DNA of 64,000 nucleotides, taken from Carcharhinus amblyrhynchos. Taxonomy: Eukaryota. The stretch's first letter is position 1. Each line of letters begins with the position of its first letter. Position numbers: made by a program. Location of the stretch: assembly GCA_965287045.1 (NCBI GenBank), contig OZ336905.1, positions 9,672,001 to 9,736,000 of the forward strand, read 5' to 3'. Of this stretch, positions 9,001 through 60,000 are shown piece after piece.

Positions 9001-12000
9001 CTCTTGAAATCTAGTCATTGTTACGTAGAGAAATATACCAAACTGCAATGTGCTGATGGCCAGATCTGTTTGTAGTGGTGTTGGTTGAATAAATATTAGT
9101 CAGAATACTACAAAGATCTGGCCTGCTCTACTTAAGTTAGTGTCATGGGATCTTTGACGTCAAGTTAAAGAACAGTCCAATGCTCCCTCAGTACTCTCCT
9201 GCAATGTCAATCTAGATTATGGGACTGTAGTCTCAGGACTGGAGCTTGAACCCACAATCTTCTGAATCAGAGGTGAAAATGTCTTTGCTGAGCCTGTGAA
9301 GACATTGACGCAGAATCTTCTGTTTGTGAAAAATAACCAGGTAACTGACTGAAGCAGTAGCAACAAATGCTGCTCAGTTTGGATGGGCTGTTGATACTGT
9401 TGTAGTGAGGGGAGGAGGGGCTGTGAGGTGAACTAGTCAAATAGAAACGAAAGAGTCTCTTCAAAGCAGTTTGGAAGTGTGGTGCTATGACAACAGCTAG
9501 TGCCACTAGAATGCTGAGCATGGGTTTAATTCTTTCATCCTCAGCCATGTCCCGGCATGGAAGAGCCAACACATTCCCACAAAGCAAAGTTTTTACTTAA
9601 GATAGCGACAACCTATTAATAAAATGTGTGGGGCCGTGTTTGCAAGAAAGCAACTTAGGTGGAATCTTTCCCCCACTCTTCCCCCTTTCCCTGCTAGAAC
9701 CTAACTGGTTTCGACTCAACAGCTCCCCCTGGTGGCACAGCTGAAATCAATAAATCGATGCTCATAGGTAATCGCAAGTTTCAAGCTGCATTTCAGTATA
9801 TTAAGGTAATAGTAATTTCCGACCTGGAATGTCATCTCTCTTCACAGATGCTGCCAGACTTGTTGAGTAATTTCAGCGTCATCAATAGTAATAGTAATTT
9901 AATAGGTAATGATCAGTCAAAACACATTTTTGAGTGTGTTTGAACGTGTATGTGGTGACTCAGTATTTCACGTTTTTATTGGCATGACTTGCTGTGAGCT
10001 GAATACCTTACGACTGGCAACAACAACGTGTATTTGACGATTTTTAAAAGCTTAGAAAACTGACTTAAAGACCAGCCCCACAGAGAGACCACTGGGCATG
10101 ATTTTGTGTCAACAGTAAGTGAACAGATAAGACTGGGCCCTCGAGTTAGAAAAATGTCTGTCAGGAATACCAGAAGATTGGCTTGGAAAGAGCTTTTTTG
10201 TAGCTGGAAGCTCTATTGAAAAGTCAAGAGCAGCTTGTGGGCTGATTTTTTTTTTCTTTTGTGATTCCTATTTGTGAGTTTCTCTTCCCGCTGCAGGCAG
10301 CGGGGCCACTGCTGTGGTGCAAGCAGCTCTCTGCAAACCCAAGAAGGAGCGCGTGGCAATAAAGAGAATCAACCTGGAGAAATGCAACACAAGCATGGAC
10401 GAGCTACTGGTGAGTCGTGGCACTGGTTTTATGCGAGGGATTGACTTGCCAACCTTTAGTGTTCATCAAAGTTAGTGCTCCCACACAATGCACCAGTGAG
10501 TGGCAAGGCATTGGTAGAATCGAGGTATTGGCCAACTTGGGAGCAGGGCAAGAAAATCAGATCAAATGACAGTTACAGAGTTAATGGGTACAGCTAGCCT
10601 GTCACAAGCTCACAAGCTACAGTGAACTGCAGATTCAAGCTGTATTTCCCAGCTTGGCAGACAGCCTGCTTTGCACCACGGAGCTGGAAACATTGGGCCT
10701 TGATGCCAATGTGTACGAAATAGCACATTTCATAAAAGTGTCACGGACTAAATTTACCATTAAAGCAAGCAGCATAAATTAGTTCAACAAGAACCTGCAT
10801 AGAGAAGGAATTTAGACTTATGATAAAGGGATGGGTGGATGGCACCAATATTCCAGCAAGTCCTGATGGCCTTTTTCTGGCTGGGATTCTTGGACCTCGC
10901 CTGCAGCTGGGATTCTCCAATCCTGCTGCAGTGAATGGAGATTTGGCTGAGCGCCAAATTCTCTGTTCCTGCTGGCAGTGGAAGCAACCCAGCCTCCGGC
11001 TCCAAAACACCAGACAAAATAAGTCAGGGGTGATGTGATGCCTTATGCTGCCAACAAATGGTAATAATTGGGTGTTCTGGTGGGGAGTCACTACGGTTGG
11101 TACCTCCAATCATTTGAATAAATTATCTTCAGCATCTGCCCAAAGTGCCAATATCCTCTGACAGGAGACAGAATTGGGGAGTTCAACACTCGTGATTACA
11201 TCATGAGAGCTCATTTAAGCAACACCTCAACAATCTAGCAAATTCATTTATCTCCTTATCCTGAGGTTGGCATATTTTATTCTCCTGCATCTCACTGGTG
11301 CAGCAAAAGATCCTTCTCCTGATGTGAAAGTGGCACACACTGGCACAGTTCTGCAGTTACCAGCTGCCATCCAGTATCTTGACCAAGTGAGCTTTCATTG
11401 ATTTTGTAAATCTGGGTGAGTAAGCATTGGCAATTTGTGTACCTGATGAAGGCTTCACGGTGAGGTTTAACGCTGTCTTCGCCCAAAGCCCACACACAAG
11501 CTTTTCCCAGCATGAGTCAGAAGGTAACCACAATTCACCAACCCGACCTAAGTGGACAGAAGGCAACAGACATGTTGGTGACAGCCTCTGTTGTGCCAGC
11601 TTGTTTGGGTTGTTTTCATGGACGCAAGAGACACATTTTGAACTCTAGCTAATATTGCTGTGAAATGCTGAACACTCTGTTTCTCTCTGAACAGAAAGAG
11701 ATTCAAGCCATGAGTCAGTGCAATCACCCCAATGTTGTGACCTATTTCACCTCATTTGTTGTGAAGGATGAGCTCTGGTTGGTGATGAAGCTGCTGAGTG
11801 GAGGTAAGAAACCATAACCCTGGATTTCAGACTGAGAGAAAGAGAAATGTTTTTGCTGTCAGGGCTGTGGGTTTTTGGAATTCTCTATTCCAGAATGCTG
11901 TAGATATTCAGGCAGGTTTAGGCCGACACTCTCTGGAATTTAGAAGAATGAGGGGAGATCAAATTGTGGTATACAAGATGATAAAAGGTCTGGATAAAGT

Positions 12001-57000: not shown

Positions 57001-60000
57001 TTGAATGCAAGAGCCATTACAGGTCCACAGTAACTTTACTGCTCCACCACTATCGACAATCAAGCTGCACTGAAATACACTAGTTCTTAAATGCTTCCAT
57101 GAGAAACACTGACAGACTACATGGAGAGAGCAATAAAAGTGTGAAGTAAACACAAGTGTGGAATGGAGTTTAGTTACAAGTTTTAGAAATTTATTTATAC
57201 AGGCTGGGATTTTCTGGTTCCTCTCCCACTCAAAAATCAACAGATCTTTGGCTGGTCCATCAGATTTTCAATCCCACCCGTGACAATTCCCACCACAGGA
57301 GGGACCAGAAAATCCAGGCCAGTCTTTTGAAATCCAATCTTCCCTGCTTGGATAGTGGATAATAATCAAGAATTGCATCATAACAACCCATGCCCTCACG
57401 TAAGCACTTCACATTCCATACACATTCTTTCAATTGTTTGGCAGTACTTAGATCATCATGAAATCTAGCTTTGGAGGTTATGACCAGTGAAGAGAGGGGA
57501 GTTCAGGTGCTATTTTGAGCACTCGTGTACACAGTTAATAAAGCAATTTTTAAAAGAACTACAAGTAGCAATTATCTCTCTTCTTACTCCAAATATAATC
57601 AACTAGTTTTTTTCTGCTCAAAATAAAGTCCATATCAATATAGGCACTTAAAATAAACCACTTTACAACAGGAAGTTTGAGCTGATACTAACATCTATGA
57701 ACCACAAGGCCAGTCACCAATTAAAATATGTAAATCACCCATAGTATTTAATCCTCATCTTCATAATATCTATTTCTCTTGATTTGTTCTTCAACTGACA
57801 GTTCTTCAGTTTCCTCCACTTCATTTCCATCCCCATCCCAAAAGCCAACATCTTCCAGTTTTCTCTCATTCTCTGGAATTTGCTCACTTGAGGTAAGTGT
57901 GTCTCTGTAGGTTTGCAACTTAACTGGCTGTTTGGATTGCTGCTTCTCACACTCAAGGAAGTCAGGTTCTCGGACTTCCTCTTTGTTGAGGTGAAGCTCC
58001 TCTATATCCTTATCTGGAAGCAGCTGTCCATTGTTGCTTTTGACTTCTACAACCTCTTCAATCACCGAATCTTCTTTCTTGCCCTTGAGCTCAGTAGTCA
58101 TTAGTTGCTCATCCTCATTTTTCAGACTTGGCTTGTTTTTGTTCTTCAGTTCATTGGTTTCTCTTTTGGCTTCCTTTTCTTTACAGATCATTGCATTCTG
58201 TGCTGTATTTTTAGCAGGTTGATTTTTTCCCGGCTCTCTTATGGCTATAGGTGTCAGCGGGGCAGCAATGGTAAATGGTCTACATCGCTCTTTCAGAGAA
58301 GCGCTTCGCCTCAGTCTTGAGGTACCACTGAATTCGGAGTTTCTCTTCGTCATCTGTTGGAAGTCATCCTCTGGAGGCCATTTTGGTTTGTTAACTCTAA
58401 AGTTCTCTTCAGTAGAATTCACTCCTTTACCACCAGTTTCAGTCGGTGGGGGCCAAGCTATTTTTAATTTTCTTGTTTCTACAGGTTTCTCCACTTTTTC
58501 TGGTGAAGGGCTGGTAACCAAGGCCTCCATGCTGGCAGCCAAAACACCAACCTTGCGTACAGAAAGCTCATCTACTCCAGAGTTCTCAGTTTTGGCCTCA
58601 GGTTTATCCATGGCAACTTCACTCTTTTCTGCAGTATCACTCTCATTTTTGGCCATCCAAAGCTCCTTGTGTGGCTTGTGACCAAATCCTTCATCGTAAT
58701 TACCTTTGGATTTGAAGAGCTGGCTAAAATGTGGCTTGCAGTACACATTCCCATGTAGTGAAGCAAAATTCCCAATGCTGTACAAAAGAAATTAGATGTT
58801 GAGACTTTTAAAATTTAAAGTTGACACCAGTAAGCTTAATTGGCCATTTACAATGCACACATTCAAACAGCGTTTCATCCAGTAAGTGGATTTATTCTTT
58901 ATATCCTATGAAGTTATACTGACCTGTTTCATCTTGTGATGGCATCCAACAGACAAAGAAATCCAGCAAGAGTCTGGGCAATAACCATTAGGGGACTATT
59001 CAATTGTGCTGGGGGGCAGGAGCAAGTGGTGCATCACAGCAGTGACATATCATACCTTTAGTGGACACAAAGGGGTGACACAGCGGTTAGCACTGCTGCC
59101 TCTCAACGCCAGGGACCTGGGTTTGATTCTGGCCTTGGTCAGTGTGTGAAGTTTGCACGTTCTCCCCACGTCTGCATGGGTTTCCTCCAGGTGCTCTGGT
59201 TTCCTTCCACAGTCCAAAGATGTGCAGATTAAGTGGATTGACCATGTTAAATTGATGCTAGTTTCAGGGGATTAGCAGGGTAAATATGTAGGTTTGAGAA
59301 TAGAACCTGGGTAGAATTGTGGTCGGTGCAGACTCGATAAGCCGAATGGTCTCCTCCTGCATTGTAGGGAGTCTACTATAAAGCCACACTGCCCAGCAGA
59401 GATTATTGATTTATCAGGAGTAGGAACCATTCTCTGTCAGAGTTAATTACATGTTATGTTAACTCATTTTTAAATAATTCACTTATGGTATGTGTGTCAC
59501 TACATTTATTGCCTATCCCTAGTTGTCCTCAAAGGTGGTGATAGTGAGCTGTCTTCTTGAACCACTAAAATCCATGTGGTGTAGGTACATGGACAGTGCT
59601 TGAGGGAGTTCCAGCATTTTGACCCAGCAACATTGAAGGAACGGCGATAGGATGGCAAGTGACTTGGAGGACCTTCAGATGCTGGTGTTCCGTGTATTTG
59701 CTGCCCTTGTCCTTCTAGATGATAGTGGTCATGGGTTTGGAAGATGCTGCCTAATAAGCATTGGTAAGTTCCTGCAGTGCATCTTGTAGATGGTACCGAC
59801 TGCTACTACTATTTGTCGGTGGTGTAGGTAGTGAATGTTTGTGGAAGGGGTAGCAATAAAGTGGACTGCTTTGTCTTGGATGGTATCAAGTTTGAGTCTT
59901 GTTGGAGCTGCATCCATCCAGGCAAGTGGAGAGTATTCCATCACACTCCTGACTTGTGCCTTGTGGATGGTAGACAGTCTTTGGGGAGTCACGAGATGAG

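What the first reader, a model, noticed from the sequence alone, without database searches (positions are those of the whole stretch)
10297..58777. Candidate third vertebrate SPAK/OSR1 kinase: an ohnolog next to LIMA1 that mammals appear to have lost
Seen: an intact GCK-VI kinase lies tail to tail with an unambiguous LIMA1. Recalled knowledge: mammals have only STK39 (2q24.3, order XIRP2-B3GALT1-STK39-CERS6) and OXSR1 (3p22, near XIRP1), and human LIMA1 (12q13) lies next to CERS5 with no kinase between them. XIRP2 has a LIM-bearing C-terminal isoform related to LIMA1, and CERS5 and CERS6 are paralogs. Inference: [CERS5]-kinase-LIMA1 is the whole-genome-duplication counterpart of CERS6-STK39-XIRP2, with matching orientations. 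This would be a separate third effector for the WNK-SPAK/OSR1-NKCC/NCC/KCC pathway, relevant to shark rectal gland and urea/salt osmoregulation. It may already exist in databases as an automated 'SPAK-like' or 'OSR1-like' model, or correspond to a divergent fish paralog.
Basis: partly seen in the sequence, partly recalled or inferred. Interest (0 to 1): 0.85.

Follow-up and report, generated by a model that had tools for sequence, protein, structure and literature searches.

The report
Shark SPAK/OSR1-type kinase beside LIMA1
This shark window holds a working-looking salt-balance kinase of the SPAK/OSR1 family, tail to tail with the actin gene LIMA1, and it belongs to an old shark, ray and chimaera lineage not found among bony-vertebrate hits.

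Summary
Fifteen open exons with GT-AG borders (10297-46299, + strand) encode a SPAK/OSR1-family kinase from the glycine loop to the stop codon. Exon 1 is not in the window. The last two coding exons of LIMA1 lie on the - strand (57748-58777 and about 63146-63268). The two stop codons are 11.4 kb apart.

The gene is not new to databases. Nine shark, ray and chimaera species carry models named 'SPAK-like', 'OSR1-like' or plain STK39. In 5 of 5 species where both genes were listed, the kinase and LIMA1 sit on a contig of the same length.

This group and bony-vertebrate STK39 each form a clade (200 of 200 bootstraps). Each stem is as long as its clade is deep. The kinase and CCT domains of a ray orthologue are about as far from mammalian SPAK as SPAK is from OSR1.

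The best reading is an old separate lineage, probably a genome-duplication copy native to the LIMA1 region and not seen among bony-vertebrate hits.

It is unproven that it is a third kinase alongside shark STK39 and OXSR1. No shark genome could be searched, and no vertebrate OXSR1 sequence was available for the tree.

The parts
10297..10409 (+). Kinase exon 2: glycine-loop end and the VAIK lysine
   Evidence: PDB SPAK 1.1e-16; AG/GT borders; 37 of 37 residues identical to the Hemiscyllium orthologue
11695..11803 (+). Kinase exon 3: helix C region
   Evidence: tblastn; Pkinase profile positions 47-81, below cut-off; AG/GT
15047..15188 (+). Kinase exon 4: ends within the HRD arginine codon
   Evidence: tblastn; Pkinase positions 89-121, below cut-off; the split codon reads R
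16608..16663 (+). Kinase exon 5: catalytic loop DVKAGN, up to the first base of the DFG aspartate codon
   Evidence: tblastn, 18 of 18 identical to shark orthologues; the split codon reads D
18357..18466 (+). Kinase exon 6: DFG, T-loop [13 protein letters not shown] with the WNK-site threonine, and APE
   Evidence: PDB OSR1 8.5e-20; T-loop peptide as quoted in PMC4512625
22231..22332 (+). Kinase exon 7
   Evidence: tblastn; PK_Tyr_Ser-Thr 24.6 bits (cut-off 23.1) and Pkinase 23.5 bits (below its 31.7 cut-off)
23770..23903 (+). Kinase exon 8
   Evidence: tblastn; 43-44 of 44 identical to shark orthologues
28349..28397 (+). Kinase exon 9: end of the kinase domain
   Evidence: tblastn; AG/GT
30985..31047 (+). 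Kinase exon 10: linker
   Evidence: tblastn; AG/GT
31771..31839 (+). Probable in-frame cassette exon (69 bases), used in ray isoforms
   Evidence: tblastn with the Narcine, Hemitrygon and Mobula models, 72-79% identity; AG acceptor, GT donor, no stop
33249..33371 (+). Kinase exon 11: S-motif [13 protein letters not shown] and the acidic WEWSDDE stretch
   Evidence: tblastn; S-motif peptide as quoted in PMC4512625
37403..37470 (+). Kinase exon 12: linker and start of the CCT domain
   Evidence: tblastn; AG/GT
38002..38054 (+). Kinase exon 13: CCT domain
   Evidence: tblastn, 17 of 17 identical to shark and Pristis orthologues
38448..38516 (+). Kinase exon 14: CCT domain with the SAGLVD stretch
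   Evidence: Pfam OSR1_C 20.0 bits, cut-off 22.4; tblastn
39041..39105 (+). Kinase exon 15: CCT domain
   Evidence: tblastn; AG/GT
46228..46299 (+). Kinase exon 16: end of the CCT domain and the TGA stop (46297-46299)
   Evidence: tblastn, 23 of 23 identical to shark orthologues; stop codon
46300..57747 (.). Space between the two stop codons (11,448 bases), which should hold both 3' untranslated regions
   Evidence: Coordinates; no long ORF with a known match
57748..58777 (-). LIMA1 last coding exon: second half of the LIM domain, the EPLIN motif, about 300 residues of C-terminal tail, and the stop codon
   Evidence: PDB EPLIN 2.1e-14; 93% identical to Mustelus LIMA1, and all named hits are LIMA1; acceptor read
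63146..63268 (-). LIMA1 exon with the first half of the LIM domain (the upstream border is approximate)
   Evidence: Pfam LIM 30.6 bits, cut-off 22.9; tblastn with Mustelus LIMA1 residues 441-488, 94% identity

Best explanation
The window carries exons 2-16 of a shark SPAK/OSR1-family (GCK-VI) kinase gene, tail to tail with LIMA1. The gene belongs to a lineage found in sharks, rays and a chimaera that is old and separate from bony-vertebrate STK39. Most likely it is the genome-duplication copy native to the LIMA1 region, a counterpart of STK39 beside XIRP2, and none was seen among the bony-vertebrate hits.

Shown:
- the exon model and its openness;
- the catalytic and regulatory motifs;
- LIMA1 as the neighbour;
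- a contig of the same length for kinase and LIMA1 in other species;
- the size of the sequence gap to STK39.

Inferred:
- It works like SPAK and OSR1. WNK kinases would dock on its C-terminal CCT domain through RFxV motifs and phosphorylate the T-loop threonine and the S-motif serine. The active kinase would then phosphorylate SLC12 salt cotransporters.
- Its CCT domain carries changes fixed in this lineage, so its set of partners may differ.

Open: whether sharks also have STK39 and OXSR1 (three genes), or whether this copy stands in for STK39 (reciprocal loss).
For: Exon model. There are 15 exons, all with AG/GT borders, consistent phases and no stop, giving 442 codons. The split codons read R of HRD and D of DFG.

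Conservation. 425 of 434 whole-codon residues match the Hemiscyllium orthologue and 392 of 434 match Callorhinchus, which points to purifying selection. Only 331-341 of 434 match bony STK39.

Relatives. Among the best 120 of 7391 hits to the ray orthologue P0023, 10 rows from 9 cartilaginous-fish species score 831-1115 bits. The other 110 rows score 792-808 bits. Apart from unnamed rows and one nematode OSR1, these are bony-vertebrate STK39.

Neighbour. It is LIMA1 and not XIRP2. Contig lengths are equal for kinase and LIMA1 in Hemiscyllium, Pristis, Narcine, Hemitrygon and Rhinoraja, 5 of 5 species with both listed.

Tree. Neighbour joining on 30 named proteins and 470 columns puts both groups in separate clades at 200 of 200 bootstraps. 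Stems are 0.083 and 0.081 against clade depths of 0.081 and 0.078.

CCT identity. It is 89% within the shark-type group (elasmobranch against chimaera), 88.5% within bony STK39 (ray-finned against lobe-finned), and 68.8% between the groups.

Hand counts on printed PDB alignments:

| Region | P0023 vs SPAK | P0023 vs OSR1 | SPAK vs OSR1 |
|---|---|---|---|
| Kinase domain | 252 of 287 | 245 of 287 | 253 of 287 |
| CCT domain | 66 of 94 | 63 of 94 | 72 of 95 |

Regulatory sites. The T-loop threonine and S-motif serine match the peptides quoted in PMC4512625.
Against: - No shark STK39 or OXSR1 was seen, so 'third' is untested. No second cartilaginous-fish STK39 appears in the best 120. The list ends at 792 bits and gar STK39 scores 794, so a conservative shark STK39 could lie just below the cut.
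- In the kinase domain alone the gap is small: 86.2% identity to bony STK39 against 88.9% between elasmobranchs and chimaera.
- Near-fixed differences are mostly derived on the shark side. Where a nematode outgroup matches one state, it shares the bony state at 13 sites and the shark state at 7, and within the kinase and CCT domains alone the split is 13 to 4. An orthologue that changed fast would look the same.
- The tree has no vertebrate OXSR1 and only one distant outgroup.
- The Callorhinchus model is named plain STK39.
- The human map positions used for the paralogous-region argument are recalled, except LIMA1 at 12q13.12 (PMC10235525).
Confidence: 0.65

Rival explanations
1. It is simply the cartilaginous-fish orthologue of STK39. 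The linker and CCT domain changed quickly in one stem lineage, and the neighbourhood was rearranged so that the gene now lies beside LIMA1.
For: - All named vertebrate hits after the cartilaginous-fish group are STK39, and none is OXSR1.
- The Callorhinchus model is named STK39.
- Kinase-domain identity to bony STK39 (86.2%) is close to that between elasmobranchs and chimaera (88.9%).
- At 34 kinase-domain sites where SPAK and OSR1 differ, the ray protein shares 15 with SPAK and 8 with OSR1 (hand count).
- Polarised fixed differences in the kinase and CCT domains lie mostly on the shark side, 13 against 4.
- No second cartilaginous-fish STK39 was seen.
Against: - The stems between the two clades are about as long as 420-430 million years of change within each clade. 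Orthology would predict stems roughly a tenth of that (dates recalled).
- CCT identity falls from 89% and 88.5% within the groups to 68.8% between them, which is lower than SPAK against OSR1 at 72 of 95.
- A rearrangement would have had to place the gene tail to tail with the LIMA1 paralogue of XIRP2, copying the STK39-XIRP2 layout by chance. The human order is recalled; the paralogy is from PMC3305314.
- The canonical N-terminus of the orthologues has 24 residues before the kinase domain and no proline/alanine-rich box.
Confidence: 0.2
2. It is a later, single-gene duplicate of STK39 (or OXSR1) that arose in the cartilaginous-fish stem and happened to land beside LIMA1. It then diverged as a freed copy.
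For: - Changes at otherwise conserved sites are concentrated on the shark-side stem.
- The group is restricted to cartilaginous fishes in the lists seen.
Against: - The multi-exon structure with long introns is kept, so it is not a retrocopy.
- The tail-to-tail layout with an EPLIN-class LIM gene mirrors the STK39-XIRP2 layout, which a random landing would not explain (human order recalled).
- The bony STK39 stem is as long as the shark-type stem in the rooted tree, although the root rests on one nematode sequence.
Confidence: 0.1
3. It is a decaying copy or pseudogene that only looks intact in the part seen.
For: Exon 1 with the start codon was not found in the window.
Against: - No stop in 15 exons, and all splice sites are canonical.
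- 98% protein identity to Hemiscyllium and 90% to a chimaera.
- All catalytic and regulatory motifs are kept.
- Orthologue models in nine species have a short first exon, so exon 1 probably lies beyond the left edge, with intron 1 longer than 10.3 kb.
Confidence: 0.03

Closest known systems
STK39 (SPAK) of bony vertebrates
   Same: - Same family and domain order: STE20-type kinase domain, S-motif, CCT domain.
- It is the best-scoring named vertebrate relative.
- The T-loop and S-motif sites are kept.
- Kinase domain 252 of 287 identical to a mammalian SPAK chain.
   Different: - CCT only 66 of 94 identical to SPAK and 68.8% to bony STK39.
- Linker 43% identical.
- The orthologues lack a proline/alanine-rich N-terminus.
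- The neighbour is LIMA1, not XIRP2/B3GALT1 (human order recalled).
- It forms a separate clade at 200 of 200 bootstraps.
OXSR1 (OSR1)
   Same: - Same family.
- Short N-terminus before the kinase domain (for OSR1 this is recalled).
- Kinase domain 245 of 287 and CCT 63 of 94 identical to human OSR1 chains.
   Different: - Slightly further than SPAK in both domains.
- No vertebrate OSR1 appeared among the best 120 full-length hits.
- No named full-length vertebrate OXSR1 was available for a tree.
[quoted passage not shown]
   Same: Orthologues. They share 385-425 of 434 residues with the window's exons, apart from the Rhinoraja model at 368. The exon mapping is the same, and they lie on contigs of the same length as LIMA1.
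   Different: The window is from another species. Its LIMA1 exon is nearest Mustelus at 93%. Some models skip or add exons, and the Hemiscyllium model starts with a different first exon.
Single invertebrate family member (named hit: Toxocara canis OSR1, P0148)
   Same: Kinase plus CCT architecture.
   Different: 69% identity in the kinase domain and 50% in the CCT domain. It was used only as the outgroup.

Membership tests
SPAK/OSR1 (GCK-VI, Fray) kinase family | STE20-type kinase domain with VAIK lysine, HRD, DFG and APE | tested here: met
   All motifs are read in exons 2, 4/5, 5/6 and 6. Single exons hit OSR1 and SPAK chains at 1e-16 to 1e-20, far above other STE20 kinases.
SPAK/OSR1 (GCK-VI, Fray) kinase family | T-loop threonine and S-motif serine, the two WNK phosphorylation sites | tested here: met
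   Exon 6 reads [13 protein letters not shown] and exon 11 reads [13 protein letters not shown]. The matching human peptides are quoted in PMC4512625.
SPAK/OSR1 (GCK-VI, Fray) kinase family | C-terminal CCT (OSR1_C, PF12202) domain with the pocket leucine | tested here: met
   Exon 14 alone scores 20.0 bits for OSR1_C, below the 22.4 cut-off. Exons 13-16 are 80 of 83 identical to P0023, whose C-terminus hits the SPAK and OSR1 CCT structures at 5.6e-39 and 4.2e-37. The leucine in SAGLVD is kept. That it equals OSR1 Leu473 is my own count on the chain and is not verified.
SPAK/OSR1 (GCK-VI, Fray) kinase family | Complete reading frame with a start codon | tested here: inconclusive
   No match to the orthologues' first exons anywhere in the window. 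The best was 20 bits at E above 0.1.
SPAK/OSR1 (GCK-VI, Fray) kinase family | Activation by WNK and phosphorylation of SLC12 cotransporters | not testable with these tools
   Inferred only from the conserved sites.
STK39 orthologue group | Nests within STK39 in a tree that also holds OXSR1 and same-species paralogues | tested here: inconclusive
   It is sister to all 21 bony STK39 sequences at 200 of 200 bootstraps with a long stem. No vertebrate OXSR1 and no cartilaginous-fish STK39 were in the tree.
STK39 orthologue group | Neighbourhood XIRP2-B3GALT1-STK39-CERS6 (human order, recalled) | tested here: not met
   The downstream neighbour is LIMA1. The upstream side lies outside the window.
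STK39 orthologue group | Proline/alanine-rich N-terminal box (recalled as the SPAK hallmark) | tested here: not met
   The canonical first exon of the ray orthologues encodes 24 residues without such a box. The window's own exon 1 was not seen.
LIMA1 (EPLIN) | One LIM domain followed by the EPLIN motif and a long C-terminal tail in the last exon | tested here: met
   Pfam LIM on the upstream exon. PDB EPLIN 2.1e-14 against LIMD2 3.2e-10. Bird and crocodile LIMA1 cover 98-100% of the 345-residue exon at 40-45% identity, and no row is named XIRP2. Proteins longer than 2000 residues were not searched. The class definition is from PMC3305314.
Whole-genome-duplication copy (ohnolog) of STK39/OXSR1 | Lies in a region paralogous to the STK39 and OXSR1 regions | tested here: inconclusive
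   Only one neighbour could be tested. LIMA1 is the EPLIN-class paralogue of XIRP2. CERS5 and the other flanking genes lie outside the window.
Whole-genome-duplication copy (ohnolog) of STK39/OXSR1 | Coexists with STK39 and OXSR1 in the same genome (needed for 'third') | not testable with these tools

The most novel reading that the evidence does not exclude
Sharks, rays and chimaeras run the WNK salt-sensing pathway through three SPAK/OSR1-type kinases. The third is a genome-duplication copy kept beside LIMA1 and lost in the stem of bony vertebrates. Its CCT docking domain has shifted at 13 near-fixed sites of 93, at 7 of which a nematode outgroup shares the bony state. It may therefore read a partly different set of RFxV-type partners, and it could be tied to the salt and urea physiology of cartilaginous fishes.
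Probability: 0.3. Interest if true: 0.7.

Novelty: new member of a known kind. Interest (0 to 1): 0.55.

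Why it matters
Work on SPAK and OSR1 treats vertebrates as having two such kinases. The shark rectal gland cotransporter is a classic model for the pathway they control.

A conserved extra or alternative family member in cartilaginous fishes would change how shark data are read against mammalian data. 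It would also add a clean case of a duplication copy kept in one jawed-vertebrate lineage and missing from the other. Its naturally diverged CCT domain could be compared with those of SPAK and OSR1.

The gene models already exist in databases. What seems unwritten is the reading of them as a separate old lineage linked to LIMA1. I found no paper on this.

Tried and rejected
- **Exon 1.** I looked for it in the whole window with the N-termini of seven orthologue models and found nothing above 20 bits.
- **XIRP2 as the neighbour.** I tested whether the LIM gene is the EPLIN-like end of XIRP2, which would make this the STK39 locus. I rejected this because all named hits are LIMA1 and they cover the whole tail.
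- **Pfam on single exons.** For the kinase exons, only exon 7 reached a cut-off, in one model (PK_Tyr_Ser-Thr). All other kinase and OSR1_C matches were below cut-off, though in the right order along the profile.
- **Representative search.** It returned 149 new unnamed proteins. I left them unused because some vertebrate-like ones could be human. For that reason there is no OXSR1 in the tree.
- **Atlas search.** A search with the C-terminal half of P0023 gave only low-scoring leads of 0.81-0.87.
- **Other scans.** Rfam found nothing.
- **Papers.** The searches found nothing on shark SPAK/OSR1 paralogues. One search was too loosely worded and returned general shark papers.
- The preprint on WNK, TSC22D and NRBP families uses ohnolog lists but says nothing about a third SPAK/OSR1 gene (passages read).

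Full report
**What is there.** The window has no N and is full of retrotransposon pieces, as expected for a vertebrate. On the + strand, single stop-free stretches at 10278-10472 and 18341-18484 hit solved SPAK and OSR1 kinase chains at 1.1e-16 and 8.5e-20. These scores are far above those for other STE20 kinases.

An exon-2 search of the protein collection returned 1875 hits, of which the best 120 were listed. Eight of those rows are named shark or ray proteins at 95-100% identity. [quoted passage not shown]

**Exon model.** Every exon has an AG acceptor and a GT donor. The phases fit from exon to exon, and there is no internal stop. The exons add up to 442 codons plus TGA at 46297-46299. The seven split codons read G, R (of HRD), D (of DFG), R, R, D and V, as in the orthologues.

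A 69-base in-frame cassette exon at 31771-31839 matches ray isoforms. The exon with the start codon is not in the window. The orthologues' first exons gave no match above 20 bits. 'Intact' is therefore shown for exons 2-16 only.

I left out the joined step, so the window's exons were never joined for a search, fold, alignment or tree. For whole-protein work I used named orthologues from other species.

**The neighbour.** On the - strand, an exon at about 63146-63268 holds the first half of a LIM domain (Pfam LIM 30.6 bits). The exon at 57748-58777 holds the second half, the EPLIN motif, a tail of about 300 residues and the stop codon.

- The second exon hits the solved EPLIN LIM domain at 2.1e-14 and LIMD2 at 3.2e-10.
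- Searched alone, it returned 1425 hits, of which the best 120 were listed. Every named row is LIMA1, or a LIM-domain 'hypothetical protein' of a shark. None is XIRP2.
- Bird and crocodile LIMA1 cover 98-100% of the exon at 40-45% identity. Proteins over 2000 residues were not searched.
- The best hit is Mustelus asterias at 93%. The window therefore comes from a shark nearest that genus among named entries, and it is not human.

Only the last two coding exons of LIMA1 are in the window. The stop codons of the two genes face each other, 11,448 bases apart.

**Relatives of the kinase.** A full-length search with the ray orthologue P0023 found 7391 hits at E up to 1e-30, of which the best 120 were listed.

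- Ten rows from nine cartilaginous-fish species score 831-1115 bits at 79-100% identity. The genera are Pristis, Hemitrygon, Hemiscyllium, Pristiophorus, Rhinoraja, Narcine, Callorhinchus, Scyliorhinus and Mobula.
- The other 110 rows score 792-808 bits at 70-75% identity. Seven of these are unnamed and one is a nematode OSR1. The rest are bony-vertebrate STK39.
- No vertebrate OSR1 and no second cartilaginous-fish STK39 appear. Gar STK39 scores 794, only just above the cut, so a conservative shark STK39 could have been missed.

Exon by exon, the window shares these counts of 434 whole-codon residues:

| Compared with | Identical residues of 434 |
|---|---|
| Hemiscyllium | 425 |
| Pristiophorus | 416 |
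| Pristis | 412 |
| Callorhinchus | 392 |
| Eight bony STK39 proteins | 331-341 |

**Linkage.** The collection reports the length of the longest contig that carries each protein. Kinase and LIMA1 share that length in five species: Hemiscyllium (23,638,752), Pristis (16,413,646), Narcine (103,180,129), Hemitrygon (80,845,220) and Rhinoraja (11,531,874). That is 5 of 5 species for which both genes were listed. I take the equal lengths to mean the same chromosome or scaffold. They do not show adjacency.

**How far from STK39.** I aligned 8 shark-type proteins, 21 bony STK39 proteins and the nematode protein, all of them named. Identities by region are below.

| Region | Elasmobranch vs chimaera | Ray-finned vs lobe-finned STK39 | Shark-type vs bony STK39 |
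|---|---|---|---|
| Kinase domain | 88.9% | 92.6% | 86.2% |
| Linker | 73.0% | 64.1% | 43.1% |
| CCT domain | 89.0% | 88.5% | 68.8% |

A neighbour-joining tree (30 proteins, 470 of 998 columns, Kimura distance) puts each group in its own clade in 200 of 200 bootstraps. Stems are 0.083 and 0.081, against mean depths within the clades of 0.081 and 0.078. Plain orthology would predict stems of about a tenth of the clade depth, on recalled divergence dates.

Near-fixed differences between the groups number 12 of 287 kinase columns, 8 of 77 linker columns and 13 of 93 CCT columns. In the kinase and CCT domains the nematode shares the bony state at 13 of these sites and the shark state at 4. In the linker it shares the shark state at 3 and the bony state at none. 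In the two folded domains, then, much of the change lies on the shark side.

**Against solved structures.** These are my hand counts on the printed alignments.

| Region | P0023 vs SPAK | P0023 vs OSR1 | SPAK vs OSR1 |
|---|---|---|---|
| Kinase domain | 252 of 287 | 245 of 287 | 253 of 287 |
| CCT domain | 66 of 94 | 63 of 94 | 72 of 95 |

The bit scores agree. The CCT of P0023 scores 135.8 bits against SPAK and 129.8 against OSR1, while the gar STK39 CCT scores 181.1 against SPAK. The shark-type protein is thus about as far from SPAK as SPAK is from OSR1. In the CCT domain it is the outlier of the three.

**Reading.** The sequence gap, the conserved link to LIMA1, and the known paralogy of LIMA1, XIRP2 and LIMD2 point the same way. 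Invertebrates have one EPLIN-class gene (PMC3305314, passages read). The kinase beside LIMA1 is best read as the duplication copy native to that region, matching STK39 beside XIRP2.

The human gene orders and map positions are recalled. The exception is LIMA1 at 12q13.12 (PMC10235525, passages). The general link of sodium-channel genes to the four Hox clusters comes from PMC1971062 (passage).

Three genes in sharks, or two with reciprocal loss, both fit the evidence. A fast-changing orthologue of STK39 remains possible, and I put it at about 0.2.

**How it should work (inferred).** The catalytic motifs are all kept. So are the T-loop threonine in [13 protein letters not shown], the S-motif serine in [13 protein letters not shown], and the CCT stretch that holds the pocket leucine (peptides and Leu473/Leu502 from PMC4512625, passages). 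I therefore expect WNK docking and activation, followed by phosphorylation of SLC12 cotransporters. The lineage-fixed CCT changes may alter the choice of partners.

**What stayed unchecked.**
- No eukaryote genome could be searched, so the number of family loci in this shark and the genes upstream (CERS5 or CERS6) are unknown.
Supplementary gene lists of shark genome papers might bear on the gene count.
- The unnamed representatives were not used, because the vertebrate-like ones could be human.

**Literature.** Searches found no paper on a third or shark-specific SPAK/OSR1 gene. Eighteen papers hold both 'stk39' and 'shark', and none has either term in its title or abstract (listing only). 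No paper holds the database name of the model.

**Retrotransposon pieces (described only).** Similarity to the reverse-transcriptase tail of one LINE family occurs at 11 places. Its RVT_1 core occurs at 3 places. A different LINE, with a zf-RVT domain, lies at about 19.9-21.3 kb on the - strand.

All of these are fragments, and the longest uninterrupted stretch is 244 residues. At 5 of the 11 places the match is split into 2-4 pieces, which makes at least 8 interruptions in all. I could not tell stops from frameshifts.

**Verdict.** This is a real, conserved, apparently functional family member beside LIMA1. It is already present as automated models, and it is probably an old separate lineage. 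The word 'third' is not yet earned.

Noticed in passing
window 950-1640, 6382-7049, 11918-12215, 18097-18213, 25242-28014, 34846-36395, 41195-42742, 60947-61585: These are fragments of one LINE retrotransposon family. Eleven places match its reverse-transcriptase tail and three match the RVT_1 core. All are incomplete, and the longest open stretch is 244 residues. Five of the eleven are split into 2-4 pieces. Most lie in kinase introns.
   Followed up: partly
window about 19900-21300, - strand: A piece of a second kind of LINE, with a zf-RVT domain (49.6 bits), lies in kinase intron 6. No complete gene is present.
   Followed up: partly
window about 59500-62500, - strand: ORF translations here look like endonuclease and reverse-transcriptase remains of another LINE in a LIMA1 intron, with a piece of the first family lying inside it. 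Pfam gave no significant match, so this rests on my reading of the translations.
   Followed up: partly
window 12500-13940: A purine-rich (GA/GGA) low-complexity tract of about 1.4 kb with strong GC skew (0.68) lies in kinase intron 3. It creates long spurious ORFs on both strands.
   Followed up: no
window 31771-31839: A 69-base in-frame cassette exon with good splice sites is conserved with ray isoforms but absent from the shark models used.
   Followed up: partly
P0036 residues 1-69 (not in window): The Hemiscyllium model starts with a first exon unrelated to the 24-residue start shared by the ray models. This is either an alternative promoter or a model error. Neither version is found in the window.
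   Followed up: partly
window 2332-2422, + strand: ARAGORN calls a 91-base tRNA-Thr-like sequence here. It may be a tRNA-derived repeat. Rfam reported nothing at its thresholds.
   Followed up: no
window 63913-64000 and 22405-22506: A perfect 17-base tandem repeat (5.2 copies) runs into the right edge of the window. A 33-base repeat (3.1 copies) lies just after kinase exon 7.
   Followed up: no
contig lengths: Kinase and LIMA1 sit on small chromosomes or scaffolds in several sharks and rays, 11.5 to 23.6 Mb. Bird LIMA1 sits on contigs of a few Mb or less. This fits a microchromosome setting for the region.
   Followed up: no
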